DNA from: Planctomycetota bacterium
GTDB taxonomy: Bacteria > Planctomycetota > GCA-002687715 > CAIWVZ01
Reading direction: 5' to 3'
NCBI GenBank assembly: GCA_044222185.1
Contig: JBGANV010000001.1
Coordinates: 2,112,001 to 2,176,000, forward strand
Length of the DNA: 64,000 nt
Shown here: positions 5,801 through 35,135 of the stretch, piece by piece
Position numbering within the stretch: the first letter of the stretch is position 1
Layout of the letters: each line of letters starts with the position of its first letter
The notes under the pieces: model-generated
Seen by the model: the letters and a program-made list of their open reading frames with translations, nothing else
Told to the model about the DNA's origin: nothing
Database searches by the model: none
Program-made: the position numbers and the translations under genes

Positions 5801-6065
5801 GGCGATCCGTTGGACGGGGATCACGCACTTCGGGACGCTGCGGGTGGGGGGCCGGTCGGGCGGCGACGTGCGCCACGTCCTGCGGCGCGATCCGGGCCTG
5901 ACGGTCGAGACGATGGTGGTCAGGGATCCGACCGGGAATTTCTTACCAGCCATCGTCCCCGCCGGAGCCGCGGAACTCACGCGAAAAACGGCCGATGGCG
6001 AGGGGCCGTCGGCGGTGCCCGTCGTCATCGCGACGGAGGGCACCCTCGACTTCCAGATCCAGTGA
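2820..6065 (+). CDS. ECF sigma-70 factor with TM segment and long extracytoplasmic extension (carboxypeptidase regulatory-like beta-sandwich repeats)
   Basis: Region 2 (LARRLVRDAAAADDVVQSTW...RAWLTGAIRN), region 4 (LDEPYRSTVMLRYFDDLSAADIGRRLGVPAATVRWRLMKGL), hydrophobic AAAVLLIATLGTAFLL, and repeated GRVVxxxGxPIAG...TxADGxF modules. Confidence 0.9.
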   Translation: MNTTPPMLDQLLHHAGWAHRLARRLVRDAAAADDVVQSTWCSVVRRGAEIRVAPRAWLTGAIRNAAAEWRRAAQRRARREERAATREGVTLDPAEIAQRAEGQRILADAVTTLDEPYRSTVMLRYFDDLSAADIGRRLGVPAATVRWRLMKGLDLLRERLDERHHGDRRAWCLIFIPLAGRPLLLASLKAGLIQAGKGAMVMKPATKVSAAAVLLIATLGTAFLLTRDGGDDLPRSRPATDAGAGRIVPVARSELRAPADPVVPSPFRETDPKPAATGAVASAAAGASVHVVGRCLDSDGRPIAGALAFEARFPETLRAMTTADGRFDFRLEDAALIRSLGLDTQEQDGRFVITAAGHARAVRGGRVRVGTLTDVGDVVLKPGGSLQGRVVGDAGQPIAGVLVVPCTADSRTGPDTPTPHVGFEEDRIEARAVRSLIGHLAGSMTNSESEQAAVRSALGDDQEFGVSRPWEVASAITRADGTFQVDGLPEGPTRIHATKPGWLGTTSEPVTITAGRTAEMPEIEMPPEGGKKHVLRGRVVDSGGQPVSRPWVDVGFKSTSPHDGSSRFAQHATNEGHFAVSTNLDGAWTFRVRDKSGRLGSACVPNVGCETETLTITLPQPRSFRVRATHAGKPIDGFAATLVAKDSPEDATAASSDALGHFEASAIRDGWLSVTIPAEPFAVEVEAPGFKRRRSPVLTPETVGDELTLDLLRLGSLHGRISSAGVAVGNASVVVHQAHDETTSAMINGFLSWVETPSVAEGRTDANGAYDLPVRTAGTYVVEVVAPGFPRTYSEPVAVDPAIGATHDVRIAHGGVIRGRVITAPGRSPAGTIVGVSQGGPDAETRRVQADGSFAFENLAEGPWMVRVVRREVTPDRTWSVTLKKRPPPFAWDCRVRAGETTTFDVDLSASGTPCVVEGVVPTQLAPKAEWTAALVTTEDPLGYSTRTVKGTVALDGTFRIDAEGAGTATLLLTAGGGSAPRVKIRDEVLLRPGAIRWTGITHFGTLRVGGRSGGDVRHVLRRDPGLTVETMVVRDPTGNFLPAIVPAGAAELTRKTADGEGPSAVPVVIATEGTLDFQIQ

Positions 6066-7262: not shown

Positions 7263-7516
7263 GCGCGACAGCCAAAGTGGAAAAACGCGGCGGGGGTGGC
7301 TGGGGCGTTCGGGTATTCGCCAATTGGCGCGAGGGCGGAGTGACGAACGCGGACCTGCGACTGAGGCGGCGGCGGCGAGCGCTGAATCCAATCCGGCACC
7401 CTGGTGCAGTCGATCGACGCCGACTATTCTCCTGCCTCGAAGCGTCGGCACGGTCGCCCGCCACGCTTCTCGACGGCGCCCCACCCGCCGATTTCGCGCG
7501 CGACGTCCCGCTCGCC

Positions 7517-10500
7517 ATGCCAACAAGAAGAAGGTGCACGGTCCCGGTTGGGGTCGTGTTTCTCTGTCTCGTTTCGGTACTGAAGGCGCAGACGACCGTC
7601 ACGTTCCAAGCAGGCGGTGCTGCCGGAACGACGAACACGCTCTGCAGGTCCTGCTACATCAACCAGACTGCGGCCATCACCGGCGGCAGTGCTTGGGTGG
7701 CCGAGTCGAACACGCTCGTCATCCAGAACCAGGGTGGCGTCGGACTCGTCGACTTCCCGGACGTCATCGGCACCGGAAGCGGCCGCATCCCACCAGGCTC
7801 GACGATCACGAGTGCCGTGCTGCAGCTCTACTGCCTCTCGGCAAACGGGACGCTTTCGTCTGCGCGCACCATCACGTGCACCCCGATCAAGGACATGGAC
7901 CGCCTCGGCACCTGGCGTGAGCCCGAGATTCCGACGACCGTCGCGACGGGCGTCGAACAGGGCGTGATGTGGCGCCGCCGCAACCGTTATCGCGACGCAA
8001 GCGGGCAACTGACCGACGACGTGCCGTGGGACCTCGGAACGAGCACCGGGCCGTCACTCGCGAACGACCCGTCGATCGTCGCCGCGTTCCCCACGATCGT
8101 GTCGTCGTTCACGTCGACGCCCTCGTCCGGCACGACCGGGATCAACTTGTTTCACACGTGGAACGTCACGACGGCCGTGAGTTTCTGGGCACAAGGGCTT
8201 CCGAATCAGGGGTTCCACTTGTCCTCGAGCTCGACGCAGGCGTTGAACTACGCCTCGGACGATCACGCGACCGTCGCACAACGTCCCAAACTCGTCGTCA
8301 CGTACGTCCCACCCGGCCCCGGAGTGCAGCCATTCAATCACGTACCCGTTCTCGGCAACGTGGGCGCGCTCAGCACCACCGTCGGCGTCGACATCCCGAT
8401 CATCCTCGCGGCCGCCGACCCCGATCCCACGCCACTCGAGTTCCTCATCACGACGAACCCGCTGAAGGGCACGATCGTCGGGACACCTCCGTACATCACC
8501 TACCGGCCGAATCCCGGCGCGACGGGAGCGGACTCGTTCGCATGGACCGCTCGCGACCAGGTGACGACGGCCTACCCGCAGACCGTCGCGATCAACATCG
8601 CCACGAGCGCCTCGACGGTGACGGCGACCTTCCAGGAGGGCGTCGCGCCAGCGGCGAACCTCGCAGTCGGTGCGACGAAGAACTGCTCGACGGATTTCGT
8701 CGCGGCGCCGGGCCCGCAGCGTTGCATCAACGACATCGAGGTCCGCATCATCCCCGACTATCGCCAGGGCTTCCTCCAGTTCCCCCAACTGATCGGGAGC
8801 GGCGTGGGCCAGGTTCCCGCGGGCTCCAACGTCCTGTCGGCGCGGCTCGAGCTCAAGACGAAAGACATCTGGACGGCCGGTAGCCCGGAGCGCGTCATCC
8901 AGCTCCGCCGGATACTCGACCCGCTGGCCCGCGGAACGTCGTGGACCGAGCCACCGACGCTCACGCCGATCGAGCCCACGGGCTGTACGTCGTGCGCCGT
9001 CTCGTTCAGCTACCCGGACTCCACGCAAACGTCGCAGCCGTGGCACATCCCGGGCGGCGACGTCCACCCCTACGAAGGTTCGAGCTTCACCATCACACCG
9101 ACGGAAAGCGGCCAGATCTGGAAATCGATCGACGTCACGAACGCCGTGCGCGCGTGGGCTTCTGGTGAGCCGAACTTCGGTTGGCAGATCCGGATGCCGA
9201 ATCTGAACGCGAGCGCGAGCGGCATCGTCCTGTGGACCGACGACGCGACGGCGCCCGCCGATCGCCCGCGGTTGAGCGTGAGCTATCGCCCTGCAGGCCC
9301 CCTGGCCGGCGCACCGCCGCACGTGATCGCCGGGCCGGCACAGCTCGTGTTCTCCGACCAGACGGTGACTCTGGACGGGCAAGGAACGACGTACCCCGGT
9401 GGGACGCTCGCCTCGACGATCTGGCTGCAAGTCGCCGGACCTGCCGTCCAGCTCTCTTCCACCTCGTCGATGACGACGACGTTCACGGCGCCCCACGTCG
9501 CGGGCACGAGCAACGTCGAGCTGCGCTTCGTGCTCGGCGTCATCGACAACACGGGTCACTACGCAGCAGACACGGTGCGGATCATCGTGCAACCCCAGCC
9601 CGGCTCGGGGTCGATCCCCTCGCCCACCGTCAGCGCCGGCGCAAATCGAACGGACCCCGAGCTCACGACCGTCACCCTGAACGGCACGGCGTCGGGCGGC
9701 ACCGGCGCGCAGAACCTCAGCGTTCGCTGGACGCAGTTGTCGGGCCCGCACGTCATCATGACCGGGGCGCAGACCCTCACGCCCAGTTTCATCACGCCTC
9801 CGCTCGCCGTTCCGAGCACGCCGCTCGTCTTCGACCTCGCGGTGACGGACGACGGCGTGACACCGCCCCTCGTCTCGGTCGTTCACGACACGATCACCGT
9901 GACCGTGACCAACGCTTTCAATTCGCCGCCCAACCCATCCACCGCCGGCACGCCGTCCACCGTCGAGTCGGGATCGTGGATGGTGCTCGACGGCTCGTCC
10001 AGCACCGACCCGCAAGGTCAAGTGCTTTCCTTCGCCTGGTCGCAGGTGTCGCCGTCCTCGCCGGCTATCCCGCTTTCGGCCTACGTCACTCACCCGTCAG
10101 TCACCGCGGCGCACACTCCGCTGCTCGCGCCGCAGGTGGCAGCGCCGACGGTGTTCACGTTCCACCTCGTGGTGAGCGACGGCGAGCTCTCGGCCTCGAC
10201 GAACGTCTCCGTCACGGTGACGCCGTCGCCTCAGCCGTTCCAAGGCACGAACTCCATGACGCCCTACAGGGACCAGCTCTCACGGGAGGAAGCGCAGCAT
10301 CTGCTCCGCCGGATGGGAACCGGGTGGCACCCCGACGACGTGGCCCAGGTCCGGAGTGCGGGCCTCGCGGCGACCGTAGCCTCCGCGGTCGTGCCGGCCC
10401 CGCGTCTTGTCGGCGGGCAACTGTCGCCAGCGCTCCAGGAAGCACTGTTCTATGCGTCCACGGTCTCGTTCCCGTTCCTGGGGCCGCCCCCGATCTTCAA

Positions 10501-11872
10501 CCCCAGCTTCGATCCCTACGCCCAGTATCTGCCAGAACACGTCACGGCGCAGTGGCTGATCCACGCGTTCCGCACGACGAGCCCGTTGCATGAGCGCATG
10601 TGCCAGTTCTGGCACGATCGGCTCGCAGTCAGCATCGGCAACCTCGTGGACCAGAAGCGGCACTGGGGCCCGATCCACCAGGACATGATCCGGTTCGGCG
10701 CGACCCCCGGTGGCGGCGCGCTGGGCAACTTTCGGACGCTGCTCGTGGACTTCGTTCGCGACCCCGCCTGCCTGGCGTTCATCGATGGTTTCGAGAACTT
10801 CAGCTTCGCGCCCAACGAGAACTTCGCTCGCGAGTTCATGGAGCTGCACACGCTCGGGATCCTCGACATCGCCACGGGACAACCGAACTACACGGAGACC
10901 GACGTCCGTGAGTGCGCACGCGCGTTCACGGGCTATCGACCGACGTGCTACCCGGCGAGCTCGCCGACGCCCACGTGCTACCCGAGCTTCGTGCCGTTCT
11001 TCCACGACACGGGCGTGAAGACGATCCTGGGACAGGTCGGCAACTTCGACGACGCCGGCGTCGTCGACGTCGTTCTCGGTTATGCATCCAACGGGATCCC
11101 GGGCCAGAAGGCGTCGCGATATCTCGCAAAGAACCTCCTCCGCGCGTTCGTCATGGACGCGCCGTCGCTCTCGCTCATCGACGAACTCGCCACGATCATC
11201 CGCTCCAACAACTGGGAGCTGACGCCGGTGATGAGCGCACTGCTCCGTTCCAACGCCATGTTCTCGCCGGCCGCGCGACGGTCGATCGTGAAGAGCCCGG
11301 TGGAGGTGGCACTCGGCATCGTGAAGACGCTGAAGGTGCCGGTGCAGACGCACGACATCGTGGCGCCCTCCTACGAAGGCATCCGGTACAACCTCGCGTT
11401 CATGGGACAGGTCCTCGGTCAGCCCATCGACGTGAACGGATGGCCGTCCGGTCTGGACTGGCTCACCGAGTACTCGATGATCCGGTACATGGAACTCGTC
11501 CGGAGCATGCTGAACCTCGCGCGAGCGCCGACGAATCCGGCGACGCTCACGGGTGCATTCCCCGGCATCCCGCCCACTCCGACGGACATCACGAAGTTCC
11601 TTCCGCCCATCAGCGCGCGCACCGGGACGAACACCGTCGCCTACCTCGCGAAGACGCTCGACGTCGACCTCGCGACCTCACCAGCCAGCGGGGCGTCGTC
11701 CTCCGAGTTCCAGCTCTTCGTCGATTACATCGATCATCAGGCTCTCTACTCGGCGACGGTGCCCTACGTCCTCGGCGGCACGCCCTTCAACGGAGACAAC
11801 CCCAATCACCTCGACAAGCTCTGGAGTACGGTGATGCTCTTCCTCCTCCACCCGGACTTCCAGAAGCTGTAG
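7517..11872 (+). CDS. Large secreted protein: 2x DNRLRE/CBM96-like domains, Ig-like domain, 3x PKD-like repeats, C-terminal DUF1800
   Basis: Signal peptide MPTRRRCTVPVGVVFLCLVSVLKAQ; two IP/VPxGSxI/VxSAxLxL...VTxAVxxWAxGxPNxG...RPK/RLxVT/SY domains; VTLDG/NG...WxQVxGP PKD repeats; DUF1800 motifs HERMCQFWHD, PNENFAREFMELHTLG, YTETDVRECARAFTG, HDTGVKTILG. Confidence 0.87.
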   Translation: MPTRRRCTVPVGVVFLCLVSVLKAQTTVTFQAGGAAGTTNTLCRSCYINQTAAITGGSAWVAESNTLVIQNQGGVGLVDFPDVIGTGSGRIPPGSTITSAVLQLYCLSANGTLSSARTITCTPIKDMDRLGTWREPEIPTTVATGVEQGVMWRRRNRYRDASGQLTDDVPWDLGTSTGPSLANDPSIVAAFPTIVSSFTSTPSSGTTGINLFHTWNVTTAVSFWAQGLPNQGFHLSSSSTQALNYASDDHATVAQRPKLVVTYVPPGPGVQPFNHVPVLGNVGALSTTVGVDIPIILAAADPDPTPLEFLITTNPLKGTIVGTPPYITYRPNPGATGADSFAWTARDQVTTAYPQTVAINIATSASTVTATFQEGVAPAANLAVGATKNCSTDFVAAPGPQRCINDIEVRIIPDYRQGFLQFPQLIGSGVGQVPAGSNVLSARLELKTKDIWTAGSPERVIQLRRILDPLARGTSWTEPPTLTPIEPTGCTSCAVSFSYPDSTQTSQPWHIPGGDVHPYEGSSFTITPTESGQIWKSIDVTNAVRAWASGEPNFGWQIRMPNLNASASGIVLWTDDATAPADRPRLSVSYRPAGPLAGAPPHVIAGPAQLVFSDQTVTLDGQGTTYPGGTLASTIWLQVAGPAVQLSSTSSMTTTFTAPHVAGTSNVELRFVLGVIDNTGHYAADTVRIIVQPQPGSGSIPSPTVSAGANRTDPELTTVTLNGTASGGTGAQNLSVRWTQLSGPHVIMTGAQTLTPSFITPPLAVPSTPLVFDLAVTDDGVTPPLVSVVHDTITVTVTNAFNSPPNPSTAGTPSTVESGSWMVLDGSSSTDPQGQVLSFAWSQVSPSSPAIPLSAYVTHPSVTAAHTPLLAPQVAAPTVFTFHLVVSDGELSASTNVSVTVTPSPQPFQGTNSMTPYRDQLSREEAQHLLRRMGTGWHPDDVAQVRSAGLAATVASAVVPAPRLVGGQLSPALQEALFYASTVSFPFLGPPPIFNPSFDPYAQYLPEHVTAQWLIHAFRTTSPLHERMCQFWHDRLAVSIGNLVDQKRHWGPIHQDMIRFGATPGGGALGNFRTLLVDFVRDPACLAFIDGFENFSFAPNENFAREFMELHTLGILDIATGQPNYTETDVRECARAFTGYRPTCYPASSPTPTCYPSFVPFFHDTGVKTILGQVGNFDDAGVVDVVLGYASNGIPGQKASRYLAKNLLRAFVMDAPSLSLIDELATIIRSNNWELTPVMSALLRSNAMFSPAARRSIVKSPVEVALGIVKTLKVPVQTHDIVAPSYEGIRYNLAFMGQVLGQPIDVNGWPSGLDWLTEYSMIRYMELVRSMLNLARAPTNPATLTGAFPGIPPTPTDITKFLPPISARTGTNTVAYLAKTLDVDLATSPASGASSSEFQLFVDYIDHQALYSATVPYVLGGTPFNGDNPNHLDKLWSTVMLFLLHPDFQKL

Positions 11873-14038: not shown

Positions 14039-14857
14039 CTACTTCGCCAGCAGCACGGGGCACGGTGCCAGTTGCAGGAGCTTCTCGCTCACGCTGCCGA
14101 CGAGGAGTCCCTCGAGGAGTCCCAATCCCCGACGCCCCATGACGATCATGTGATGGCCCCCGCGCTTCAGCTCGGCCATGAGCTCCATCGCCGGGTCGCC
14201 CGCGACGTCGCGCGTCGTGACGTTCAGCCCGGCGAGGCCCGCCGCGCCCACGGCGTCTCGGAGGATCGGCTCGGCGGACGGCGCTCCGGGCGACCGCACG
14301 TGCATCGCCACGATCTCCGCCTTGGGGAAGAACGTGTGGGCCGAGCGCAGGGCCCGAACGCTGTGGGACGACCCATCGACGGCCACCAGCACTTTCCGCA
14401 TGGGTCCCAGCGGCGGGTGATTCCCCGTCACCAGCACGGAGCACGGCGCCAGCCGCACGACTTCCGTGCTGACGGTGCCGATGAGGAGCCGCTTCAGCTT
14501 CCCGGCGCCCCGTTGGCCGATCACGATCAGCTCGGCACCGACCTCCAGCGCCTTGTCCAGGATCGTCTCCACGGGGAGCCAGTTGCGGACGTGCTCGAAC
14601 GCGACCAGGCCCCGGGCCCGAAGCGCGTCGGCCGCGTTCTTCAGCATCGCTGACGCCTCTCGGGACGAGGTCGCGATGAGCTGCTCGACCACCTGGGCAC
14701 TGGCGTGGGATGGCACGGCCTGCAGGTGGACGGAGTTGACGAGGTGGACCTCGGCCGGAACGGTCAGCGCGATCTCACTCGCCCAGCCGAGCGCGCATTC
14801 AGCATCCGACGTCTGGTTGTATGCAACGACAATCTTCACGTGGCCGCTCCTTTGCAT
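14039..14857 (-). CDS. Universal stress protein, two Usp domains
   Basis: KIVVAYNQT...LIVIGQRGAGKLKRLLIGTVSTEVVRLAPCSVLV and KVLVAVDGS...IVMGRRGLGLLEGLLVGSVSEKLLQLAPCPVL. Start approximate. Confidence 0.92.
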   Translation of the reverse strand: MQRSGHVKIVVAYNQTSDAECALGWASEIALTVPAEVHLVNSVHLQAVPSHASAQVVEQLIATSSREASAMLKNAADALRARGLVAFEHVRNWLPVETILDKALEVGAELIVIGQRGAGKLKRLLIGTVSTEVVRLAPCSVLVTGNHPPLGPMRKVLVAVDGSSHSVRALRSAHTFFPKAEIVAMHVRSPGAPSAEPILRDAVGAAGLAGLNVTTRDVAGDPAMELMAELKRGGHHMIVMGRRGLGLLEGLLVGSVSEKLLQLAPCPVLLAK

Positions 14858-15199
14858 CGCATCGCTGTCCGACTCGCGCGGACTGTATTCGCTCGCCGAA
14901 CGCGGTGACACAACCGACGCGCCGCCTACGCAAAATGTCGGGAACGTCGGAGACGGCCGACGGCAGCGCGGAAGCGGGCCGTCGCGTGCACCGCCTGAGC
15001 CTCATGACGCGGTGATTCGACGGTGGATCGGCGGCGCGCCGCTCGATCGGCCGCCCCAGCGCTCAGCCACGAGCCGCACGACGCCGCCGCGCGGGCCGAT
15101 CGGACGGCGCGCCACGCGGTACGCACTGTTCCGTAGCTCCTGGCAACACCATGTATAAGAGCGGCCCTCGCACTGGAACAATGACGCGGGAGCCACTTC

Positions 15200-15811
15200 A
15201 TGCAGCACAGCCACGAGCCCAAGCCGAGCCAAGATCCAAGCACTGCTGACCGGCGCACGTTCCTCTCGACGGCCTCGTCCGTCGTCATGGCCGGCGGCCT
15301 TCTCGCGGGTTACGGCACGTTCGCAGGGTTCGCCGCGCGCTACCTCTATCCGGCGAAGCCGACTCCGAAGGGCTGGATGTTCGTGGCGACGACGACGTCG
15401 CTGAAGCCGGGAGAATCGCTGGCCTACAAGACTCCCGCCGGTGCCGCCGTGGCGATCGCTCGCCAGGGCGCGGGCGAAACCGCCGCGGATTTCATCGCGC
15501 TCTCGAGCACGTGTCCTCACCTGGGCTGCCAGGTGCATTGGGAGTCGAAGGACAGCCGCTTCTTCTGCCCGTGCCACAACGGTGCGTTCGACGGGAACGG
15601 CGTCGCCATCGGTGGTCCCCCGAAGGAGGCCGGCCAATCCCTGCCGCGATACCCGCTCAAGGTCGAACACGGGCTCCTGTTCATCGAAGTGCCGACGGGT
15701 CGAGAGATCGCGTCCGCCGATCGACCCGCACGCGAGGCCCCGTGCCGTCCCCGTCGGGACATCCAAGCGTTCGACGGGCCCCTCGGCGACACGACGGAAA
15801 TGCGAGTCTGA
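15200..15811 (+). CDS. Rieske [2Fe-2S] subunit of a Rieske/cytochrome b complex
   Basis: Tat-like DRRTFL plus TM anchor; CPHLGC and CPCH cluster boxes; GGPP...LPRY. Confidence 0.95.
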   Translation: MQHSHEPKPSQDPSTADRRTFLSTASSVVMAGGLLAGYGTFAGFAARYLYPAKPTPKGWMFVATTTSLKPGESLAYKTPAGAAVAIARQGAGETAADFIALSSTCPHLGCQVHWESKDSRFFCPCHNGAFDGNGVAIGGPPKEAGQSLPRYPLKVEHGLLFIEVPTGREIASADRPAREAPCRPRRDIQAFDGPLGDTTEMRV

Positions 15812-15814
15812 CCC

Positions 15815-16864
15815 ATGGCGACGATCAAGGCATGGCTTCGTGAGCGCATTCCGCTCGACCCCGCGCAGCTGCGCGAGATCACGAATGAACCCGTCCCCTA
15901 TCACCTGAAACGTTGGTGGTTCTGCCTGGGCGGAACCCCCATGTATCTCTTCGTCGTCCAGATCGTGACGGGGATCCTCCTGGCGTTCTACTACGAGGCG
16001 TCACCGGGTCGCGCCTACGACTCCGTCCGCTTCATCACGGACCACGCGGCCTACGGATGGTTCCTGCGCAGCATGCACAAGTGGGCGGCGACGCTGATGG
16101 TGGCGGCCGTCATCCTCCACCAGATGCGGATCTTCTTCACGGGCGCCTACCGGAAGCCGCGCGAACTCAACTGGATGATCGGCATGTGCCTGCTCTTGTG
16201 CACGCTCGTCGCCGGGTTCACGGGCTACAGCCTCGTGTTCGAGCAGTTGAGTTTCTGGGGCGCGACGGTCGCGGCGAACATCACGGACACGATCCCGGTC
16301 GTCGGTGGGTTGTTGAAGCGCATGCTGCTTGCCGGCGATGCCTACAACGAGCAGACGGTTCCCCGGTTCTTCATCCTTCACGCCGCCGTCCTGCCGGTGA
16401 CGATGACGCTGCTCCTCGCCATTCACATCGGCCTGATCCGGCTCCAGGGAATCACCGAGTTCAAGTTCCGCGACGAACCGGAAGGCAAGCCGCGCATCTT
16501 CGCCTTCTTCCCGGATCACTTCTTCACGGAGCTCATGATCGGGCTCTTCCTGATGATCCTGCTCGGCGCGCTCTCGGTCGTCCTCCCCGCGGACATGGGC
16601 CCCAAGGCCAACCCGCTCGCGACGCCCGAGATCATCAAACCCGAGTGGTACTTCTACGTCGCATTCAGGTGGCTGAAGCTGTTCTCGGGCGTCTTCGCCG
16701 TGCTGAGCATGGGGCTCGTGGTGTTCACGATGTTCCTCTGGCCCTTCATCGACGGCTGGTTCCGCAAGCGTGCGAGATTCGCCGAAGCGAGCGTGTGGAT
16801 CGGGATCGTCGCCGTGTCGCTGATCGTCAGCCTCACGGTCTGGGAAGCCGCGGTCGCGCACTGA
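15815..16864 (+). CDS. Cytochrome b (b6-like, fused to subunit IV)
   Basis: WFCLGG, heme ligands SMHKW...ILHQMR and FFILH-x14-H, YRKPRELNW, GFTGYSL, KPEWYF Qo-site motif. Confidence 0.95.
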   Translation: MATIKAWLRERIPLDPAQLREITNEPVPYHLKRWWFCLGGTPMYLFVVQIVTGILLAFYYEASPGRAYDSVRFITDHAAYGWFLRSMHKWAATLMVAAVILHQMRIFFTGAYRKPRELNWMIGMCLLLCTLVAGFTGYSLVFEQLSFWGATVAANITDTIPVVGGLLKRMLLAGDAYNEQTVPRFFILHAAVLPVTMTLLLAIHIGLIRLQGITEFKFRDEPEGKPRIFAFFPDHFFTELMIGLFLMILLGALSVVLPADMGPKANPLATPEIIKPEWYFYVAFRWLKLFSGVFAVLSMGLVVFTMFLWPFIDGWFRKRARFAEASVWIGIVAVSLIVSLTVWEAAVAH

Positions 16865-16891
16865 ACCCCAAACGAATACCGGAGATCGTGA

Positions 16892-18502
16892 ATGTCCCTG
16901 GAAACCAAGCGCTTCGTGATCGGGATCCTCGGCGTCGTGTTCCTCGCGTCGCTGATCTTCGTCCAGTACATGGAGGTGACGCGACGACGCGCGGAGGCCG
17001 GCCTCGATCCCGCCACGATCTCGGTGCCATCGAATTCCAAGCAATGCGTCGATTGCCACAGGCAGTCGAATCCGGCGATCGTGGAACACTGGACTGGCAG
17101 CACGCACGCAGCCAAGGGCGTGGGTTGTTTCGAATGCCACCAGGCCCAGCAAGGCGAAGCGGACGCGTTCGAGCACTACGGCCAGACGATCGCCACCGTC
17201 GTGACGCCGCGGGACTGCTCCCGCTGCCACGACGAGGAGACGAAGCAATTCGCCGCGAGCCATCACTCGAAGGCCGGCGACATCCTGGCGTCCCTCGACA
17301 ACTTCCTCGCCGAGAACGTGGAAGGCATGCGCGGCCGCTTCAACCCGCACTCGCCCACACCGGGCAAGCCGAACGACATGGTCAACGGCATGGCCAGCGT
17401 GAACACGGGCTGCAAGCAATGCCACGGCGGCAAGGTCGGGATGCAGACCGATGATGGCGGCATGGTGACGGTCGACGACCTCAAGCCCGACGAGACCGGC
17501 AAGCCCACGAACAAGGAAGCCGTCGCGAAGATCTTCAAGGATCAAAACGGCAAGCCGCGCCTGCACGCGAGCACGTGGCCCAACACGGGGATCGGCCGCA
17601 TCAACCTGGACGGGTCCCGAGGATCGTGCTCCGCGTGCCACAGCCGTCACGACTTCTCGCCGCGACGCGCACGGCAGCCCGAAAACTGCGGCAAGTGCCA
17701 CCTCGGACCGGACCACCCGCAGGAGGAGATCTACAACGAATCCAAGCACGGCGTCGCCTATCGCGACCTGCGCGACAAGATGAACCTGGACTCGAAGACG
17801 TGGGTCCTCGGCAAGGATTACTCGGCAGCCCCCACCTGCGCCACGTGCCACATGTCCGGGAACACGCGCAACGGGGGCAAGAGCACGCACGACCCGGGTG
17901 AGCGCATCTCGTGGACGAACCGCCCGCCGATCAGTCTCGTGATGGACACGGACGCGAACCACAAAGTCATCACCGAGGCGGATCCGGCCAAACGAGCCGC
18001 GCAGACGGCGGACAACGCGGAAAACAAGCGCACGCGCATGAAGGAGGTCTGCTCGCACTGCCACACGCCCGACTACATCAACGGGTTCTACAAGCAGTAC
18101 GACGACTTCGTGATCCTCTTCAACGAGAAGTTCGCGAAGCCCGGCAAGCAGATCATCGACCTCCTCCGCGCCCAGAACCTCATCACGAAGCCCGACTTCG
18201 ATGAGGAGATCGAGTGGACGTGGTACTTCCTCTGGCACCACGAGGGTCGCCGTGCGCGCCACGGTGCATCCATGATGGCGCCGGACTACGCGCACTGGCA
18301 CGGCATGTACGAGGTCGCGGACCGCTTCTACATGCAGCTCCTCCCTCAAGCGCGTGAGATCGCCAAGCACGCGGCAGAGTCGGGCAAGACGGAACAAGCC
18401 GCGGCGGTGAACGGGCTACTGGATTCGATCCTCGCCCGCCCCGAGCACAAGTGGCTCCCCGACCAGCTCGCGACCCTCAAGCCGACGGCGCCGCCGAAGT
18501 GA
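16892..18502 (+). CDS. Membrane-anchored octaheme cytochrome c, hydroxylamine oxidoreductase (HAO)-like family
   Basis: Eight CxxCH motifs (CVDCH, CFECH, CSRCH, CKQCH, CSACH, CGKCH, CATCH, CSHCH); HAO-family motifs PENCGKCHLGPDHPQEEIYNESKHG and APTCATCHM; N-terminal TM helix. Confidence 0.92.
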   Translation: MSLETKRFVIGILGVVFLASLIFVQYMEVTRRRAEAGLDPATISVPSNSKQCVDCHRQSNPAIVEHWTGSTHAAKGVGCFECHQAQQGEADAFEHYGQTIATVVTPRDCSRCHDEETKQFAASHHSKAGDILASLDNFLAENVEGMRGRFNPHSPTPGKPNDMVNGMASVNTGCKQCHGGKVGMQTDDGGMVTVDDLKPDETGKPTNKEAVAKIFKDQNGKPRLHASTWPNTGIGRINLDGSRGSCSACHSRHDFSPRRARQPENCGKCHLGPDHPQEEIYNESKHGVAYRDLRDKMNLDSKTWVLGKDYSAAPTCATCHMSGNTRNGGKSTHDPGERISWTNRPPISLVMDTDANHKVITEADPAKRAAQTADNAENKRTRMKEVCSHCHTPDYINGFYKQYDDFVILFNEKFAKPGKQIIDLLRAQNLITKPDFDEEIEWTWYFLWHHEGRRARHGASMMAPDYAHWHGMYEVADRFYMQLLPQAREIAKHAAESGKTEQAAAVNGLLDSILARPEHKWLPDQLATLKPTAPPK

Positions 18503-18706
18503 GGAATTCACCCGCGATTCACCGCGCGGGTGCTCCGGGCTCCGCCCGAATCGACGCCTCGGGTACGCACCGCTGACGCACGCCGATCTGCCGTTGTGCG
18601 TAGAGATCCAATCGCGTCATCGGACGAAACTAAAGACACGTTCGGGCCCCGCAGAGCCCCTTGTGGCGGTGCGATGACCGGGCACCAACGTGTGGTCATG
18701 ATCGAA

Positions 18707-19363
18707 ATGGCGAAGACGACCGTTTACCTGCTGGATGATCAGGCGATGATCCGGGCAGCGTTCCGGCATTGGCTGAGCCAGGCCGACTGGCTCACGATCG
18801 TTGGAGAGCAGGGCAACCCGAGGACCGCGATTCACGAGATCGCGGACATCAAGCCCGACATCGTCCTCCTCGACATCGCCATGCCCGAACTCTCGGGCCT
18901 CGACGCCATCCCGTTGATCCGGGACGTCGCGCCACAGGCGCGCATCGTGATGATGACCAATCACGAGGGCGAGTGCTTCGTTCGCCAGGCCATCGACCGC
19001 GGCGCGAGTGGCTATCTGTGCAAGGACTCCGATCCCGACGAACTCGTGACGGCGCTTCGGGCCGTGCGCGGCGGGACGAGATACGTGTCACCGAAGGCCG
19101 GCGCGCAGAACCCGACGGCTCCGCCAACCACGCATCCCGAGACCCAAGCGGCGAACGGACTCGACGCCCTCACGCCCCGCGAGCGCGAGGTGTTCCTTCT
19201 CCTCGCCATGGGGCGGTCGAACAAGGAAGTCGCGCGCGAGTTCCACATCAGCCTCGGGACGGCCAAGAAGCACCGCGAGAACCTGCAGCGCAAACTGGAC
19301 TGCCATTCGCCCGCGGATCTGGCGCGGCTCGCGATTCGCGAGGGGCTGCTCCCCGCGAAGTGA
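18707..19363 (+). CDS. NarL/LuxR-family response regulator (paralogue of 6184-6846)
   Basis: YLLDDQAMIRAAF, LLDIAMP, LTPREREVFLLLAMGRSNKEVARE. Start may be 18698. Confidence 0.93.
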   Translation: MAKTTVYLLDDQAMIRAAFRHWLSQADWLTIVGEQGNPRTAIHEIADIKPDIVLLDIAMPELSGLDAIPLIRDVAPQARIVMMTNHEGECFVRQAIDRGASGYLCKDSDPDELVTALRAVRGGTRYVSPKAGAQNPTAPPTTHPETQAANGLDALTPREREVFLLLAMGRSNKEVAREFHISLGTAKKHRENLQRKLDCHSPADLARLAIREGLLPAK

Positions 19364-20293: not shown

Positions 20294-20475
20294 CGGTGAA
20301 CTATACCCCGCCCCATCTCAGCCTGCCCGATCCGGCGCGCAGGCAGGAGGTTGGAGCAGCTACCCACGTCGCCCCCGCACGGGGTGCCCAGGTTCGTAGC
20401 GTCGTCCGAGGACCGCCGAGCGATGATGAAGCCATGGAGCCGCCCCGACGTGCCCGGCTCCGGAAAGGTTCGGCC

Positions 20476-20937
20476 ATGTTCGCGATCAAGAAGATCCTCG
20501 TGCCAACCGATTTCTCGCCCAGTGCACGCGATGCAGTCCTCTACGCCGTGGACCTGGCGAAGACGTTCGGAGCCGACCTCGTGGTGATGCATGCCCTCGA
20601 GCCTGTCCTCGCCTATCCGGTGTACGGCATCGAGACGCCCATCACGATTCCCCAGCAGGACGAGGTGCGAAAGAGCATCGACGTCCAGATGAAGAAGCTG
20701 CTGGAGAACGACATCAAGGGAGCCGTGCGCACGAAGACGCTGGTTCGTGAGGGTCGCGCACCGGTCGAGATCGTCCGCGCCGCCAAGGAAGAGCACGTGG
20801 ACCTGATCGTGATCGGGAGCGCGGGCTACTCCGCGTTCACCTACGCGCTCCTGGGCAGCACGGCCGAAAAGGTCGCGCGCAAGGCGAGCTGCCCCGTCCT
20901 GCTGTACCGCGAGAAGGGTCGGGAGGAGCCTCGGTAG
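20476..20937 (+). CDS. Universal stress protein UspA family
   Basis: IKKILVPTDFS...VDLIVIGSAGYS...LLGSTAEKVARKASCPVL. Confidence 0.95.
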   Translation: MFAIKKILVPTDFSPSARDAVLYAVDLAKTFGADLVVMHALEPVLAYPVYGIETPITIPQQDEVRKSIDVQMKKLLENDIKGAVRTKTLVREGRAPVEIVRAAKEEHVDLIVIGSAGYSAFTYALLGSTAEKVARKASCPVLLYREKGREEPR

Positions 20938-29661: not shown

Positions 29662-30366
29662 TCAGCGACCCTGGCCGTAATAGGCGCCGGGTCCGTGCTT
29701 GCGATCGTGGTGTCGTTCGAACAGCGGTTGTCTGGACGACGCGCCAGCGGGCGCGACGAGGAGCGACAGGGTCCCGAACGCCATCTGGGCGACGGCCTCG
29801 AGGGCGACGGCGTTCTCCAGGCTCTTCGTCGCCGTCTCCCCAAAGCAGAATGGAGCGTGCTGGCGGACGAGAACGGCCGGCATGCGGAGCGGGTCGCGCG
29901 AGCCAAGCACGTCGAGGATCGTGCGCCCCGTGGCCTCCTCGAAGCTGCCCTCGACCTCTGCGCGTTCGAGGGGACGCGTGACTGGGATGTCGCCTTCGAA
30001 GTGGTCCGCGTGCGTGGTGCCGAGACAGGGGATCCACCGCTCGGCCTGCGCGAACATGCAGGCGTACGCACTGTGCGTGTGGGTGATGCCGCCGACGGAC
30101 GGCAGCGCGCGGTACAGCATCCGGTGAATCGGCGTGTCGGTGGATGGCCGCGCCGAGCCTGCGCAGTGGCCGCTTGCCGCGTCCACGACGCACATGTCTT
30201 CGGGTCGCAGCGCGGCGTACGGCACGCCGCTCGGCTTGATGACGAGTGTGGAGCGGTCACGCGTGATCCCGCTGACGTTCCCCCACGTCAGTGCGACGAG
30301 GCGATGGCGTTCCAACCCCCGATTCGCCTCGCAGACCTCGGCGCGCAGATCGTCGATCTCGCTCAC
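29662..30366 (-). CDS. araD: L-ribulose-5-phosphate 4-epimerase
   Basis: LTWGNVSG, VIKPSGVPY, RPSTDTPIH, GGITHTHS, GTTHADHFEGDIPVTR, RKHGPGAYYGQ; GTG start overlaps the araB stop. Confidence 0.95.
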   Translation of the reverse strand: MSEIDDLRAEVCEANRGLERHRLVALTWGNVSGITRDRSTLVIKPSGVPYAALRPEDMCVVDAASGHCAGSARPSTDTPIHRMLYRALPSVGGITHTHSAYACMFAQAERWIPCLGTTHADHFEGDIPVTRPLERAEVEGSFEEATGRTILDVLGSRDPLRMPAVLVRQHAPFCFGETATKSLENAVALEAVAQMAFGTLSLLVAPAGASSRQPLFERHHDRKHGPGAYYGQGR

Positions 30367-32072: not shown

Positions 32073-32127
32073 GGGACTGCTCCGGGAGGGCAACAGTGTA
32101 CGCGCTGATCCGGCTGGCGCTTCTCCT

Positions 32128-32684
32128 CCGGAACGCCGCGTTCCAACGCGGCTGGATCGGCAGGGCTCCAGCCCTGCCGCGATTGGCGGACGGCAGCGCG
32201 CAAACGCCGTCGCCGGGCTTCCGTCTTGCCACGCGCGCGCGAGTCCGGAGGCCTCGCGGTCCGGCCAGGCTGGTGCCTGGCGCTCCGGCTCCGGAACGCC
32301 GCGTTCCAACGCGGCTGGATCGGCAGGGCTCCAGCCCTGCCGCGATTGGCGGACGGCAGCGCGCAAACGCCGTCGCGCGGCTTTCGTCTTGCCACGTGCT
32401 CGCGAGTCCGGAGGCCTCGCGGGCCGGCCAGGCTGGTGCCTGGCGCTCCGGCTCCGGAACGCCGCGTTCCAACGCGGCTGGATCGGCAGGGCTCCAGCCC
32501 TGCCGCGATCGACGGACGGCAGCACGCAAACGCCGTCGCCGGGCTTTCGTCTTGCCACGTGCTCGCGAGTCCGGAGGCCTCGCGGTCCGGCCAGGCTGGT
32601 GCCTGGCGCTCCGGCTCCGGAACGCCGCGTTCCAACGCGGCTGGATCGGCAGGGCTCCAGCCCTGCCGCGATCGGCGGACGGCA
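32128..32684. repeat. Tandem array of a 163-bp REP/BIME-like unit (about 3.4 copies)
   Basis: CCGGAACGCC unit starts at 32128, 32291, 32454 and 32617 (period 163, not a multiple of 3). Near-identical copies, each with GGCAGGGCTCCAGCCCTGCC and further hairpins; lies between divergent araB and GH146. Confidence 0.93.
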
Positions 32685-32703
32685 TCGGGTATCCTCCGCG
32701 GCT

Positions 32704-35091: not shown

Positions 35092-35135
35092 GATCGCGGC
35101 CGGCCGACGACCTCGCGTCGGCGGACTTCATCACG

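What the first reader, a model, noticed from the sequence alone, without database searches (positions are those of the whole stretch)
15200..18502. Rieske/cytochrome b complex whose c-type subunit is an octaheme HAO-like enzyme: candidate Q-cycle-coupled nitrogen-oxide reductase in a sugar-degrading heterotroph
Seen: Rieske, cytochrome b and an 8xCxxCH protein lie 3 and 27 bp apart, and no cytochrome c1/f gene is present. Known: HAO-family octahemes without the Tyr-heme crosslink (epsilon-Hao type) work reductively, and anammox bacteria carry HAO-like proteins in Rieske/cyt b operons. Inference: the C-terminal MMAPDYAHWHG appears to have Trp where oxidative HAO has the crosslinking Tyr. The complex could pass quinol electrons directly to nitrite, hydroxylamine or NO reduction, as a minimal three-subunit respiratory module.
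Basis: partly seen in the sequence, partly recalled or inferred. Interest (0 to 1): 0.75.

Follow-up and report, generated by a model that had tools for sequence, protein, structure and literature searches.

The report
Quinol-linked octahaem nitrite reductase operon
Three tightly packed genes encode a membrane quinol-oxidising complex whose usual small cytochrome c partner is replaced by an eight-haem enzyme of the nitrite-reducing type; it is real and widespread, and has been predicted from other genomes but never tested at the bench.

Summary
Rieske (15200-15811), b6-type cytochrome b (15815-16864) and an N-terminally anchored octahaem cytochrome (16892-18502; 8 CxxCH) lie 3 and 27 bp apart. 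No other c-type cytochrome gene is in the window, and no cytochrome c1 in the genome.

The octahaem is an HAO-family protein nearest to IhOCC (PDB 4QO5). The Asp-His active-site pair is kept. The cross-link position holds Trp469 (or His468 in a second alignment), not Tyr.

The cassette is conserved: cytochrome b lies upstream in 75 of 80 related loci from many phyla, and NapA follows directly in 37 of 80. This genome has NarG and qNOR but no NirK, NirS, NrfA or sirohaem nitrite reductase. In 301 genomes of the phylum, NrfA occurs in 3 of 40 carriers against 84 of 261 others.

Best reading: a quinol:nitrite (N-oxide) reductase, with ammonium somewhat likelier than NO as product.

The design is already in print for Caldithrix abyssi (2017), Nitrospira and anammox bacteria. 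This scan met it at least eight times on other DNA. It is a new member of a known, biochemically untested kind.

The parts
15200..15811 (+). Rieske [2Fe-2S] subunit, 203 aa. It has a twin-arginine motif RRTF (aa 18-21, nt 15251-15262) and cluster motifs CPHLGC (aa 105-110, nt 15512-15529) and CPCH (aa 123-126, nt 15566-15577).
   Evidence: Pfam PF00355, 42.9 bits. Motifs found by script. Best NCBIfam matches are b6f/bc1 Rieske subunits, all below their cut-offs.
15815..16864 (+). Cytochrome b, 349 aa, an unsplit b6 + subunit-IV form. FCLGG lies at aa 36-40 (nt 15920-15934); this is the Cys position that binds haem ci in b6-type proteins (role recalled). His88/His102 and His189/His204 are present. 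The Qo-site motif PEWY lies at aa 276-279 (nt 16640-16651).
   Evidence: Pfam PF00033 167 bits, PF13631, PF00032. NCBIfam cytochrome b6 204 bits and ExtP 218 bits, both below cut-off. Motifs by script. H88, H102, H189, H204 and P276-W278 are invariant in 18 orthologues; residue 279 is Y here and F in the consensus.
16892..18502 (+). Membrane-anchored HAO-family octahaem cytochrome c, 536 aa, the candidate nitrite/N-oxide reductase.
   Evidence: 8 CxxCH. PF13447 76.6 bits. PDB 4qo5 E 4e-39, and 1.3e-102 with a profile. AlphaFold2 pLDDT 94.3, with Foldseek top hits 4qo5, 6h5l, 4n4j, 1fgj.
16913..16969 (+). Hydrophobic core (aa 8-26) of the N-terminal helix of the octahaem protein, read as an uncleaved membrane anchor.
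   Evidence: The AF2 model has one helix over aa 3-35 with pLDDT 88-97. K6, L13, F17, S20, L21, V24, Q25 and E28 are invariant in 18 orthologues. Stand-alone relatives (L117, L121) match only from residue 45 on.
17411..17425 (+). Fourth haem motif CKQCH (aa 174-178), the predicted catalytic haem. That the catalytic haem is haem 4 in HAO enzymes is recalled knowledge.
   Evidence: It aligns with the fourth CxxCH of NeHAO in the profile alignment. C174, C177 and H178 are conserved in at least 90% of 89 sequences.
17711..17716 (+). Asp274-His275, in GPDHP just after haem motif 6. This is the equivalent of the NeHAO Asp267-His268 distal pair.
   Evidence: Profile alignment to 4fas. Invariant in 18 orthologues. 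D in 78 of 89 and H in 70 of 89 in the wide alignment.
18281..18304 (+). Cross-link-site segment PDYAHWHG (aa 464-471). It holds Trp469 (or His468) where oxidative HAOs have the haem-linking Tyr.
   Evidence: Y466, W469, H470 and G471 are invariant and H468 is present in 17 of 18 orthologues.
18530..19363 (+). LuxR/NarL-type response regulator directly downstream. It is a possible regulator; membership of the module is uncertain.
   Evidence: PF00072 + PF00196. A homologue lies within 6 kb in only 7 of 80 related loci.
14039..14911 (-). Tandem universal stress protein, divergent from the operon. Membership is uncertain.
   Evidence: PF00582 with 2 stretches. Homologues of this Usp are near the cassette in 3 of 80 loci, and of the second Usp (20296-20937) in 10 of 80.

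Best explanation
The three genes encode a membrane-bound quinol:nitrite (N-oxide) oxidoreductase. Menaquinol is oxidised at the Qo site of a b6-type cytochrome b. One electron goes through the Tat-exported Rieske cluster into the haem chain of an octahaem HAO-family protein. That protein is held at the membrane by its own N-terminal helix and takes the place of cytochrome c1/f. At its open haem 4, with the Asp274-His275 pair and no Tyr cross-link, it reduces nitrite: to ammonium (my lean, about 60:40) or to NO. The second electron would go through the b haems (a Q cycle), so nitrite reduction would add to the proton-motive force.

In this organism nitrite would come from the cytoplasmic NarG nitrate reductase. 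A qNOR could remove any NO. In many relatives the same cassette also feeds a NapAB nitrate reductase encoded directly behind it.

Shown: gene order, family membership, residue conservation, synteny and co-occurrence. Inferred: physical complex formation, substrate, product and the Q cycle.
For: Anatomy.

Family and type:
- Nearest solved relative is IhOCC: E 4e-39, profile 1.3e-102, Foldseek E 8.9e-22 with TM 0.64.
- Next is HAOr, the NO-forming nitrite reductase of Kuenenia.
- Asp-His pair kept and no Tyr at the cross-link position.

Conserved cassette:
- Cytochrome b directly upstream in 29 of 29 loci from the phylum, Rieske visible in 27 of 29.
- Cytochrome b upstream in 75 of 80 and Rieske in 70 of 80 loci from many phyla.
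- The anchor helix is conserved.

Nitrogen context:
- A NapA gene follows the octahaem gene in 37 of 80 loci. One example scores 943 bits against a cut-off of 904.
- A NapB-like tetrahaem follows in 28 of 80.

Own genome (93.8% complete):
- NarG 1507 bits; qNOR 891 bits to 3AYF.
- No NirK over cut-off (52), no true NirS (53), no NrfA over cut-off (54), no Hcp (61), no sirohaem NIR_SIR (94).
- Other Rieske/cytochrome b units sit beside the aa3 oxidase and inside a multihaem cluster, so this one is not needed as the general complex III.

Phylum sample of 301 genomes, where 40 carry the orthologue:
- NrfA in 3 of 40 carriers against 84 of 261 others.
- NirK in 1 of 40 and NirS-like in 1 of 40.
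- NarG or NapA in 24 of 40 against 57 of 261.

Print:
- The same wiring was proposed for Caldithrix abyssi, a nitrate ammonifier (passages).
- The same was proposed for Nitrospira, where the octahaem and the two upstream Rieske/cytochrome b genes are co-expressed (passages).
Against: - No activity, spectrum or structure exists for any member of this clade.
- The authors of the Kuenenia work report that AlphaFold3 gave no reasonable model with their HAO-like subunit (passage).
- HAO-family enzymes are trimers and Rieske/cytochrome b complexes are dimers (established knowledge, recalled), so the stoichiometry is unexplained.
- Whether haem 4 is five-coordinate cannot be read from sequence.
- Tyr466 is invariant in the orthologues, 2-3 residues before the aligned cross-link position. 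Only a structure or a spectrum fully excludes a cross-link.
- 16 of 40 carrier genomes show neither NarG nor NapA.
- The co-occurrence counts come from related genomes and are not independent.
- The NapAB linkage fits a pure electron-transfer role equally well.
Confidence: 0.65

Rival explanations
1. The octahaem protein is only an electron-transfer subunit. It is a many-haem stand-in for cytochrome c1 that hands quinol electrons to separate periplasmic enzymes (NapAB, haem-copper oxidases, peroxidases) and has no catalysis of its own.
For: NapA follows directly in 37 of 80 loci and a NapB-like tetrahaem in 28 of 80. In the example loci whose neighbours were scanned with Pfam I saw no NapC/NapGH-type gene, except NapG/NapH-like genes in L123; the 37 loci were not all checked. 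A COX1-family gene lies nearby in 7 of 80 loci. In Campylobacter jejuni a Qcr complex is reported to drive Nap (PMC6195509; search listing and abstract start only).
Against: This genome has no close NapA; the best match is 31% identical and lies elsewhere. The Asp-His pair and the haem-4 motif are invariant in the orthologues. Carriers mostly lack NrfA, NirK and NirS. The cell has other Rieske/cytochrome b units with their own cytochromes for oxidases. The two roles could also coexist.
Confidence: 0.2
2. It reduces another periplasmic acceptor, such as sulfite, tetrathionate, hydroxylamine or NO only (detoxification), or a metal, and not nitrite.
For: Octahaem relatives act on several substrates according to Soares 2022 (passages). 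HAOr also reduces NO and hydroxylamine (abstract). The genome is rich in multihaem cytochromes, with an MtrC-like cluster 83-103 kb away. Usp genes and a LuxR-type regulator flank the operon.
Against: The recurrent physical link is to NapA, which makes nitrite. The near-exclusion is with NrfA. Sulfite-reducing MccA and OTR are distant by fold: Foldseek E above 0.3 for MccA, and OTR not listed.
Confidence: 0.1
3. It works oxidatively, like nitrifier HAO, feeding electrons from hydroxylamine or hydrazine into the quinone pool through reverse operation of the complex.
For: Public annotations call cluster members 'hydroxylamine dehydrogenase/oxidoreductase'. Tyr466 is invariant near the cross-link site.
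Against: No Tyr sits at the aligned cross-link position in either alignment. The NCBIfam hydrazine dehydrogenase model scores 66.6 bits against a cut-off of 900. HAOr, which lacks the cross-link, does not oxidise hydroxylamine or hydrazine (abstract). The genome has only this one HAO-family gene. Genes for ammonia monooxygenase or hydrazine synthase were not searched for.
Confidence: 0.03

Closest known systems
Caldithrix abyssi nap-Rieske-cytochrome b-epsilonHao cluster, Cabys_2564-2556 (Kublanov et al. 2017, PMC5317091; passages read)
   Same: A Rieske gene, a cytochrome b gene and a Tyr-less HAO-type octahaem gene lie side by side. There is no monohaem cytochrome c gene nearby. The authors propose that the Rieske/cytochrome b pair oxidises quinol and donates to the octahaem nitrite reductase and/or to Nap. 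The organism reduces nitrate to ammonium and has no NrfA.
   Different: There the cassette is embedded in a nap cluster (napM, A, G, H). Here no nap gene is linked or present in the genome. Their epsilonHao is described as periplasmic, whereas this protein has a conserved N-terminal anchor helix. Orthology of the two octahaems was not tested because no Caldithrix sequence was at hand.
Nitrospira moscoviensis / N. japonica octahaem nitrite reductase ('ONR') with two upstream Rieske/cytochrome b genes (Mundinger et al. 2019, PMC6606698; passages read; cites Koch 2015 and Ushiki 2018, not read)
   Same: The same three-gene layout. The genes are co-expressed. [quoted passage not shown]
   Different: There the role proposed is assimilatory, in an autotrophic nitrite oxidiser. 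Here the host is a heterotroph with NarG and qNOR. Sequence relationship to the Nitrospira protein was not tested.
Kuenenia stuttgartiensis Rieske/cytochrome b complex Kuste4569-4574 with the HAO-like subunit Kuste4574 (PMC12954380; passages read)
   Same: A Rieske/b6-type complex associated with an HAO-like octahaem, proposed to reduce nitrite. Co-migration of all subunits is reported.
   Different: The anammox complex has a split b6/subunit IV, a further multihaem cytochrome and an NAD(P) oxidoreductase subunit, and is proposed to bifurcate electrons. None of these genes is here. In two anammox-type genomes the nearest homologue of this protein (41-42% identity) stands alone.
IhOCC, octahaem cytochrome c of Ignicoccus hospitalis, PDB 4QO5 (Parey et al. 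2016; paper not seen, cited through)
   Same: It is the closest solved structure by sequence and by fold. It has no P460 haem (Soares 2022 passages) and is described as membrane-associated in the paper's title (reference list).
   Different: Foldseek gives only 23% identity. IhOCC has Asp-Val where this protein has Asp-His (alignment). Whether Rieske/cytochrome b genes lie near its gene was not checked.
HAOr (Kustc0458), PDB 6H5L, NO-forming nitrite reductase of Kuenenia (Ferousi et al. 2021, PMC8042395; abstract and passages)
   Same: A Tyr-less HAO. It shares the GPDHP motif (alignment). It has Trp at the aligned cross-link position (the sequence was identified as 6h5l).
   Different: It is soluble, pairs with a dihaem cytochrome, and is more distant in sequence (E 3e-23).

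Membership tests
HAO / octahaem cytochrome c family (Pfam PF13447) | Eight CxxCH haem-binding motifs in one chain of about 500 aa | tested here: met
   Motifs at residues 52, 79, 109, 174, 246, 266, 316 and 387.
HAO / octahaem cytochrome c family (Pfam PF13447) | Family model above its curated cut-off, and the HAO fold | tested here: met
   PF13447 76.6 bits against 21.9. AF2 pLDDT 94.3. Foldseek ranks 1-10 are all HAO-family chains, with E from 8.9e-22 to 4e-10.
HAO / octahaem cytochrome c family (Pfam PF13447) | Distal Asp-His pair at the catalytic haem (NeHAO Asp267-His268; numbering checked by counting in the alignment, role recalled) | tested here: met
   D274-H275 align with it. They are invariant in 18 orthologues.
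HAO / octahaem cytochrome c family (Pfam PF13447) | Five-coordinate (open) catalytic haem 4 | not testable with these tools
   Models carry no haems, and the ligand set cannot be settled from sequence.
Oxidative HAO / HDH (P460 type) | Tyr that cross-links to haem 4 of the neighbouring subunit (NeHAO Tyr467) | tested here: not met
   The aligned residue is Trp469 (MAFFT plus length argument) or His468 (HMMER gap placement). Tyr466 lies 2-3 residues upstream and aligns with a Trp of IhOCC.
Oxidative HAO / HDH (P460 type) | NCBIfam equivalog hydrazine_HDH above cut-off | tested here: not met
   66.6 bits against a cut-off of 900.
Reductive HAO-type enzymes (IhOCC, epsilonHao, HAOr) | HAO fold without the cross-link Tyr | tested here: met
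Reductive HAO-type enzymes (IhOCC, epsilonHao, HAOr) | Nitrite / hydroxylamine / NO reductase activity | not testable with these tools
   Needs an enzyme assay.
Rieske/cytochrome b complexes (b6f-like branch) | Rieske protein with CxH...CxxH cluster motifs and Tat export | tested here: met
   CPHLGC, CPCH and RRTF; PF00355.
Rieske/cytochrome b complexes (b6f-like branch) | Cytochrome b with two His pairs, the PEWY Qo motif and the b6-type Cys | tested here: met
   H88/H102, H189/H204, PEWY at 276 and FCLGG at 36. Conserved in 18 orthologues. The role of the Cys is recalled.
Rieske/cytochrome b complexes (b6f-like branch) | Cytochrome c1, cytochrome f or a mono/dihaem c subunit | tested here: not met
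   No PF02167 in the genome. No other CxxCH gene in the window. The octahaem gene sits in that place. Cytochrome f was not searched for.
Rieske-cytochrome b-octahaem nitrite-reductase cassette (Caldithrix / Nitrospira type) | Gene order Rieske, cytochrome b, HAO-type octahaem on one strand | tested here: met
   The same order recurs in 75 of 80 related loci.
Rieske-cytochrome b-octahaem nitrite-reductase cassette (Caldithrix / Nitrospira type) | Physical link to nap genes (Caldithrix form) | tested here: not met
   No nap gene next to it or in the genome. The link is present in 37 of 80 relatives.
Rieske-cytochrome b-octahaem nitrite-reductase cassette (Caldithrix / Nitrospira type) | Orthology of the octahaem protein to Cabys_2556 or to the Nitrospira ONR | not tested
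Anammox Rieske/cytochrome b complex Kuste4569-4574 | Split b6 + subunit IV, an extra multihaem cytochrome and an NAD(P) oxidoreductase subunit | tested here: not met
   Cytochrome b is unsplit and the neighbours are Usp, a LuxR-type regulator and an EEP-family protein.

The most novel reading that the evidence does not exclude
The cassette is a proton-motive nitrite reductase of its own architectural class. An HAO-type enzyme, normally a trimer, is bolted by its N-terminal helix onto a Rieske/cytochrome b core, normally a dimer. Nitrite (and, in relatives, Nap-dependent nitrate) reduction would then run through a Q cycle and conserve energy. That contrasts with the usual view, cited in the Caldithrix paper, that no evidence exists for Nap or epsilonHao being electrogenic. 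It would serve many phyla, including Planctomycetota, Acidobacteriota and Gemmatimonadota, as the main alternative to NrfA.
Probability: 0.35. Interest if true: 0.6.

Novelty: new member of a known kind. Interest (0 to 1): 0.35.

Why it matters
If the cassette works as proposed, many bacteria that genome surveys score as lacking a nitrite reductase do reduce nitrite, and they conserve energy while doing so. In the phylum sample, 35 of 40 carriers showed no NirK, NirS-like or NrfA gene. That would change nitrogen-cycle budgets drawn from marker-gene counts in sludge, soil and sediment. Databases now often label the protein 'hydroxylamine dehydrogenase', which suggests nitrification, the opposite direction. 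The complex would also be a good test case for how a Rieske/cytochrome b core is rewired to a catalytic multihaem subunit. For this particular window the result is confirmatory. The idea is in print, and this scan has met the module repeatedly on other DNA.

Tried and rejected
- **Complex prediction.** A cytochrome b + octahaem job with alignments A2 and A3 met a full queue and then the tool was declared unavailable. Nothing was folded, so binding is untested.
- **C-terminal fragment search.** A phmmer search of the PDB with the C-terminal 157 aa, meant to align the cross-link segment to oxidative HAOs, returned designed repeat proteins and only IhOCC.
- **Paper not held.** Maalcke 2014 (PMC3894310), which would name the residues, is not held.
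- **RNA evidence.**
  - Short contigs (151-363 nt, mostly 99% or more identical) from four metatranscriptome-labelled runs of three studies lie on parts of the region: Rieske (X19), the cytochrome b 3' end (X13, X15), the octahaem gene (X13, X15, X18), the regulator and a Usp gene.
  - The tool warns that DNA can be present in such libraries. No contig bridges a gene junction by 31 letters on both sides.
  - I count this as no more than a hint. Uncovered parts mean nothing.
- **Neighbour conservation.** It was looked for and is weak: the regulator in 7 of 80 loci and the Usp genes in 3 and 10 of 80.
- **Anammox orthology.** The closest homologues in two anammox-type genomes stand alone, so I do not call this an orthologue of Kuste4574.
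- **NosZ.** The PF18764 search found nothing, but its control rang nowhere. No conclusion is drawn.
- **Usual complex III.** I considered that this is the cell's ordinary complex III. I rejected it because another Rieske/b6/subunit IV set with an 8-haem cytochrome carrying class I domains lies beside the aa3 oxidase operon.
- **Script and call errors.** Errors were slips. They were redone.

Full report
**1. Observation**

The + strand carries three ORFs: 15200-15811 (203 aa), 15815-16864 (349 aa) and 16892-18502 (536 aa). The gaps are 3 and 27 bp, and a GGAG lies 9-12 bases before the third start.

Pfam names them as follows:
- Rieske: PF00355, 42.9 bits.
- Cytochrome b: PF00033, 167 bits, plus the C-terminal PF00032 domain. 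This makes it an unsplit b6 + subunit IV form.
- Multi-haem_cyto: PF13447, 76.6 bits against a cut-off of 21.9. This is the family of hydroxylamine oxidoreductase (HAO).

Motifs found by script:
- The third protein has exactly eight CxxCH motifs.
- The Rieske protein has RRTF, CPHLGC and CPCH.
- Cytochrome b has FCLGG at residue 36, His88/102 and His189/204, and PEWY at 276.

Among 31 gene-like ORFs of the window, only the octahaem gene has a CxxCH. Cytochrome c1 (PF02167) was not found in the 93.8%-complete, 7.08 Mb genome.

**2. What the octahaem protein is**

By sequence, the nearest solved structures are:
- IhOCC of Ignicoccus hospitalis (4qo5), E 4e-39.
- HAOr, Kustc0458 of Kuenenia (6h5l), E 3e-23.
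- Nitrosomonas HAO, E 1.5e-18.

A profile of 26 diverse homologues raises IhOCC to 1.3e-102. An AlphaFold2 model built on 89 sequences has mean pLDDT 94.3 and pTM 0.87. Foldseek then ranks 4qo5 first (E 8.9e-22, TM 0.64), followed by 6h5l, 4n4j and 1fgj. The NrfA/ONR group is far behind.

The model begins with a single helix over residues 3-35. Its residues K6, L13, F17, S20, L21, V24, Q25 and E28 are invariant in 18 orthologues. Relatives that lack Rieske/cytochrome b neighbours (L117, L121) match only from residue 45 on. I read the helix as an uncleaved membrane anchor that ties the enzyme to the complex. This is inference.

**3. The cross-link question**

In the profile alignment to 4fas, counting along the chain places NeHAO Tyr467 in the segment NPGGWTYTEGW. 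The matching segment here is APDYAHWHGMY (residues 463-473).
- HMMER puts a one-residue insertion before the NeHAO Trp, which pairs Tyr467 with His468.
- From the conserved Pro to the conserved Arg-x-Tyr, both proteins have the same number of residues. That gives an ungapped pairing of Tyr467 with Trp469.

The MAFFT alignment of 89 sequences supports the second reading. It aligns this segment with VQQDVSWW-WG of HAOr; that sequence was taken from an unnamed anammox-type genome and identified as 6h5l at 1104 bits. It also aligns with GGHDYTTFKNG of an IhOCC-like protein. An aromatic residue sits in the same column in all three: Trp here, Trp in HAOr, Phe in the IhOCC-like protein.

Either way there is no Tyr at the position. 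Tyr466 is invariant in the 18 orthologues, but it aligns with a Trp in IhOCC. Soares et al. 2022 describe IhOCC as lacking the P460 haem (passages). In the wide alignment that column also varies: Y 68, W 5, V 4, D 3, F 3, H 3 of 89.

The Asp-His pair that lies over the catalytic haem in NeHAO (Asp267-His268) is present as Asp274-His275. It is invariant in the orthologues. NeHAO Tyr334 corresponds to Arg344, also invariant.

The NCBIfam hydrazine dehydrogenase model scores 66.6 bits against a cut-off of 900. The protein is therefore a Tyr-less, reductive-type HAO. Ferousi et al. 2021 showed that such an enzyme reduces nitrite and does not oxidise hydroxylamine or hydrazine (abstract and passages).

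**4. How common and how conserved it is**

- A word-indexed search returned 7998 of 8000 scored candidates with E up to 1e-5. The best 120 are 70-75% identical, apart from the window's own protein at 100%.
- An exhaustive search of 50%-identity representatives found 1930 proteins at E up to 0.001 and 279 at E up to 1e-30.
- In 301 genomes sampled from the phylum, 90 have a match at E up to 1e-20. Of these, 40 including this genome have a full-length orthologue at E up to 1e-250, with 66-74% identity for the others.
- The phylum is Planctomycetota, judged from the names on the best hits and from the presence of anammox-type genomes in it.
- In the 29 loci fetched from those genomes, cytochrome b lies directly upstream in 29 of 29. 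Rieske is visible in 27 of 29; the other two are cut by the locus end.
- A scan of species-representative genomes gave more than 598 matching stretches. The best 80 loci carry titles from Planctomycetota (Gemmataceae, Pirellulaceae, Planctomycetaceae, Phycisphaeraceae), Acidobacteriota, Gemmatimonadota, Binatia, Krumholzibacteriota, Eiseniibacteriota and others. Nearly all are metagenome-assembled genomes, at 60-74% identity for 78 of the 80 (two Bacteroidia/Bacteroidales loci are 48-50%).
- In these 80 loci cytochrome b is upstream in 75 and Rieske in 70. The clear exceptions are L113, L117 (Anaeromyxobacter sp. PSR-1) and L121. The rest of the misses are contig ends.
- Such high identity across phyla, together with patchy occurrence within one phylum, points to strong constraint and lateral spread of the cassette. 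This is inference.

**5. Genomic context**

In 37 of 80 loci a molybdopterin oxidoreductase follows the octahaem gene directly. Of these, 34 are at least 62% identical to the L064 example and 3 are 38-41% identical. The example scores 943 bits against the NapA model NF010055, whose cut-off is 904. In 28 of 80 loci a tetrahaem protein with a NapB match comes next. One Bacteroidales locus has NapA plus NapG- and NapH-like proteins.

This genome has no such NapA; the best tblastn match is 31% identical and lies elsewhere. What the genome does and does not have:
- Present: a true NarG at 1507 bits and a quinol-dependent NO reductase at 891 bits to 3AYF.
- Not found: NirK above cut-off.
- Not found: a convincing NirS; the best match is 42.8 bits over part of the model.
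- Not found: NrfA above cut-off, Hcp or a sirohaem nitrite/sulfite reductase domain (the control rang in 11 of 14 genomes).
- Only one HAO-family gene.

It has four cytochrome b genes:
- One forms a Rieske/b6/subunit IV set with a 1107-aa 8-haem cytochrome that ends in class I cytochrome c domains. It lies divergent from the aa3 oxidase operon.
- Another forms a Rieske/cytochrome b/9-haem set inside a large multihaem cluster with an MtrC/MtrF-like decahaem.

So the window's unit is a dedicated module and not the cell's general complex III.

**6. Co-occurrence in the phylum sample**

The sample is 301 genomes, of which 40 are carriers as defined.

| Gene | Carriers | Others |
|---|---|---|
| NrfA family | 3 of 40 | 84 of 261 |
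| NirK (E up to 1e-60) | 1 of 40 | 9 of 261 |
| NirS-like (E up to 1e-40) | 1 of 40 | 12 of 261 |
| Any of the three | 5 of 40 | 98 of 261 |
| NarG | 12 of 40 | 29 of 261 |
| NapA-like (E up to 1e-150) | 19 of 40 | 34 of 261 |
| NarG or NapA | 24 of 40 | 57 of 261 |

In 17 of the 19 carriers with a NapA-like gene, that gene lies right beside the octahaem gene.

These genomes are related and many are incomplete, so I give counts only. The pattern is what one expects if the cassette supplies the nitrite-reducing step. The near-exclusion with NrfA is my main reason to lean towards ammonium as product. HAOr's NO production, the shared GPDHP motif and the qNOR in this genome keep NO open.

**7. Mechanism proposed**

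1. Quinol is oxidised at the PEWY Qo site.
2. One electron passes through the Rieske cluster to the haem chain of the anchored octahaem protein, and on to haem 4, where nitrite is reduced.
3. The other electron passes through the b haems (Q cycle).

In relatives with NapAB the same chain would also feed nitrate reduction. The steps that are shown are gene order, family membership, residue conservation, synteny and co-occurrence. Everything about electron flow, complex formation, product and energy coupling is inferred. A structural puzzle remains: HAO-family enzymes are trimers and Rieske/cytochrome b complexes are dimers (recalled knowledge).

**8. What is known already**

- Kublanov et al. 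2017 described in Caldithrix abyssi a nap cluster that ends in Rieske, cytochrome b and a Tyr-less epsilonHao. They proposed that the Rieske/cytochrome b pair donates to NapM and/or the octahaem nitrite reductase, and that this could make the pathway electrogenic (passages). I found this paper by my own search, before opening the scan's notes.
- Mundinger et al. 2019 report that in Nitrospira moscoviensis the octahaem nitrite reductase and the two upstream Rieske/cytochrome b genes are expressed together. [quoted passage not shown]
- The anammox complex Kuste4569-4574 has an HAO-like subunit proposed to reduce nitrite (passages).
- Surveys of Phycisphaerae and of subsea-tunnel Planctomycetota noted HAO-like octahaems as candidate nitrite reductases where nirK and nirS are missing (passages).
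- My searches found no biochemical study of a Rieske-linked member outside anammox. Subscription journals and supplements were not covered.
- Earlier notes of this scan describe the same module on other DNA at least eight times, with the same closest relatives. One of them reads His at the cross-link position, which matches the HMMER alternative above.

**9. Other points**

- Near-identical DNA occurs in bioreactor and activated-sludge metagenomes.
- Short contigs from metatranscriptome-labelled runs touch all three genes. This does not prove transcription.
It holds a 1692-aa GH127/arabinofuranosidase protein, an FGGY sugar kinase and a CBM96-bearing DUF1800 protein.

**10. Verdict**

This is a real, conserved three-gene respiratory module, most likely a quinol-linked nitrite (N-oxide) reductase of the Tyr-less HAO type. 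It is a new member of a kind already predicted from genomes and still untested at the bench. I give 0.35.

Noticed in passing
G000:C14:481000-500999 (locus L010), outside the window: A second Rieske / cytochrome b6 / subunit IV set, followed by a 1107-aa protein with 8 CxxCH and C-terminal class I cytochrome c domains. It is divergent from an aa3-type oxidase operon (COX1, CtaA, CtaB) and is probably the aerobic complex III of this organism.
   Followed up: partly
G000:C1:2009000-2028999 (locus L011), about 83-103 kb upstream of the window: A cluster of multihaem cytochrome genes with 4, 9, 9, 10, 11, 13 and 16 CxxCH motifs. It includes an MtrC/MtrF-like decahaem, a third Rieske + cytochrome b pair and a further cytochrome b gene. 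It looks like an extracellular-electron-transfer type locus, which is unusual for a planctomycete.
   Followed up: partly
L045:5260-5934, L048:3270-3863, L049:5261-5956, L051:5201-5887 (related loci): Four Planctomyces-type loci carry an extra gene of 197-231 aa with no Pfam match, inserted between cytochrome b and the octahaem gene. It could be a fourth subunit in that lineage.
   Followed up: no
L076:4024-4482 (related locus): A 152-aa globin-like protein (weak PF00042 match, 22.3 bits) lies between cytochrome b and the octahaem gene in one Planctomycetota genome.
   Followed up: no
L058:11447-13150 and six other related loci (L068, L077, L091, L098, L099, L109): A 567-aa haem-copper oxidase subunit I homologue lies within a few kb of the cassette in 7 of 80 loci. 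It scores far below the CtaD cut-off, so its type (oxygen or NO reductase) is open.
   Followed up: no
window 34779-39857 (+): A 1692-aa ORF joins a complete GH127 beta-L-arabinofuranosidase (three domains) to alpha-L-arabinofuranosidase domains at its C-terminal end.
   Followed up: no
window 2820-6065 (+): A 1081-aa ORF has sigma-70 region 2 and region 4 domains at its N-terminus, followed by CarboxypepD_reg-like repeats. It is either a sigma factor fused to a large extracytoplasmic part or an over-long ORF call.
   Followed up: no
window 7277-11872 (+): A 1531-aa DUF1800 protein has a long N-terminal extension with PKD-like and CBM96 domains.
   Followed up: no
window 30363-33026 (-): An FGGY-family carbohydrate kinase has an N-terminal extension of about 320 aa without a Pfam match (887 aa in all, if the start call is right).
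   Followed up: no
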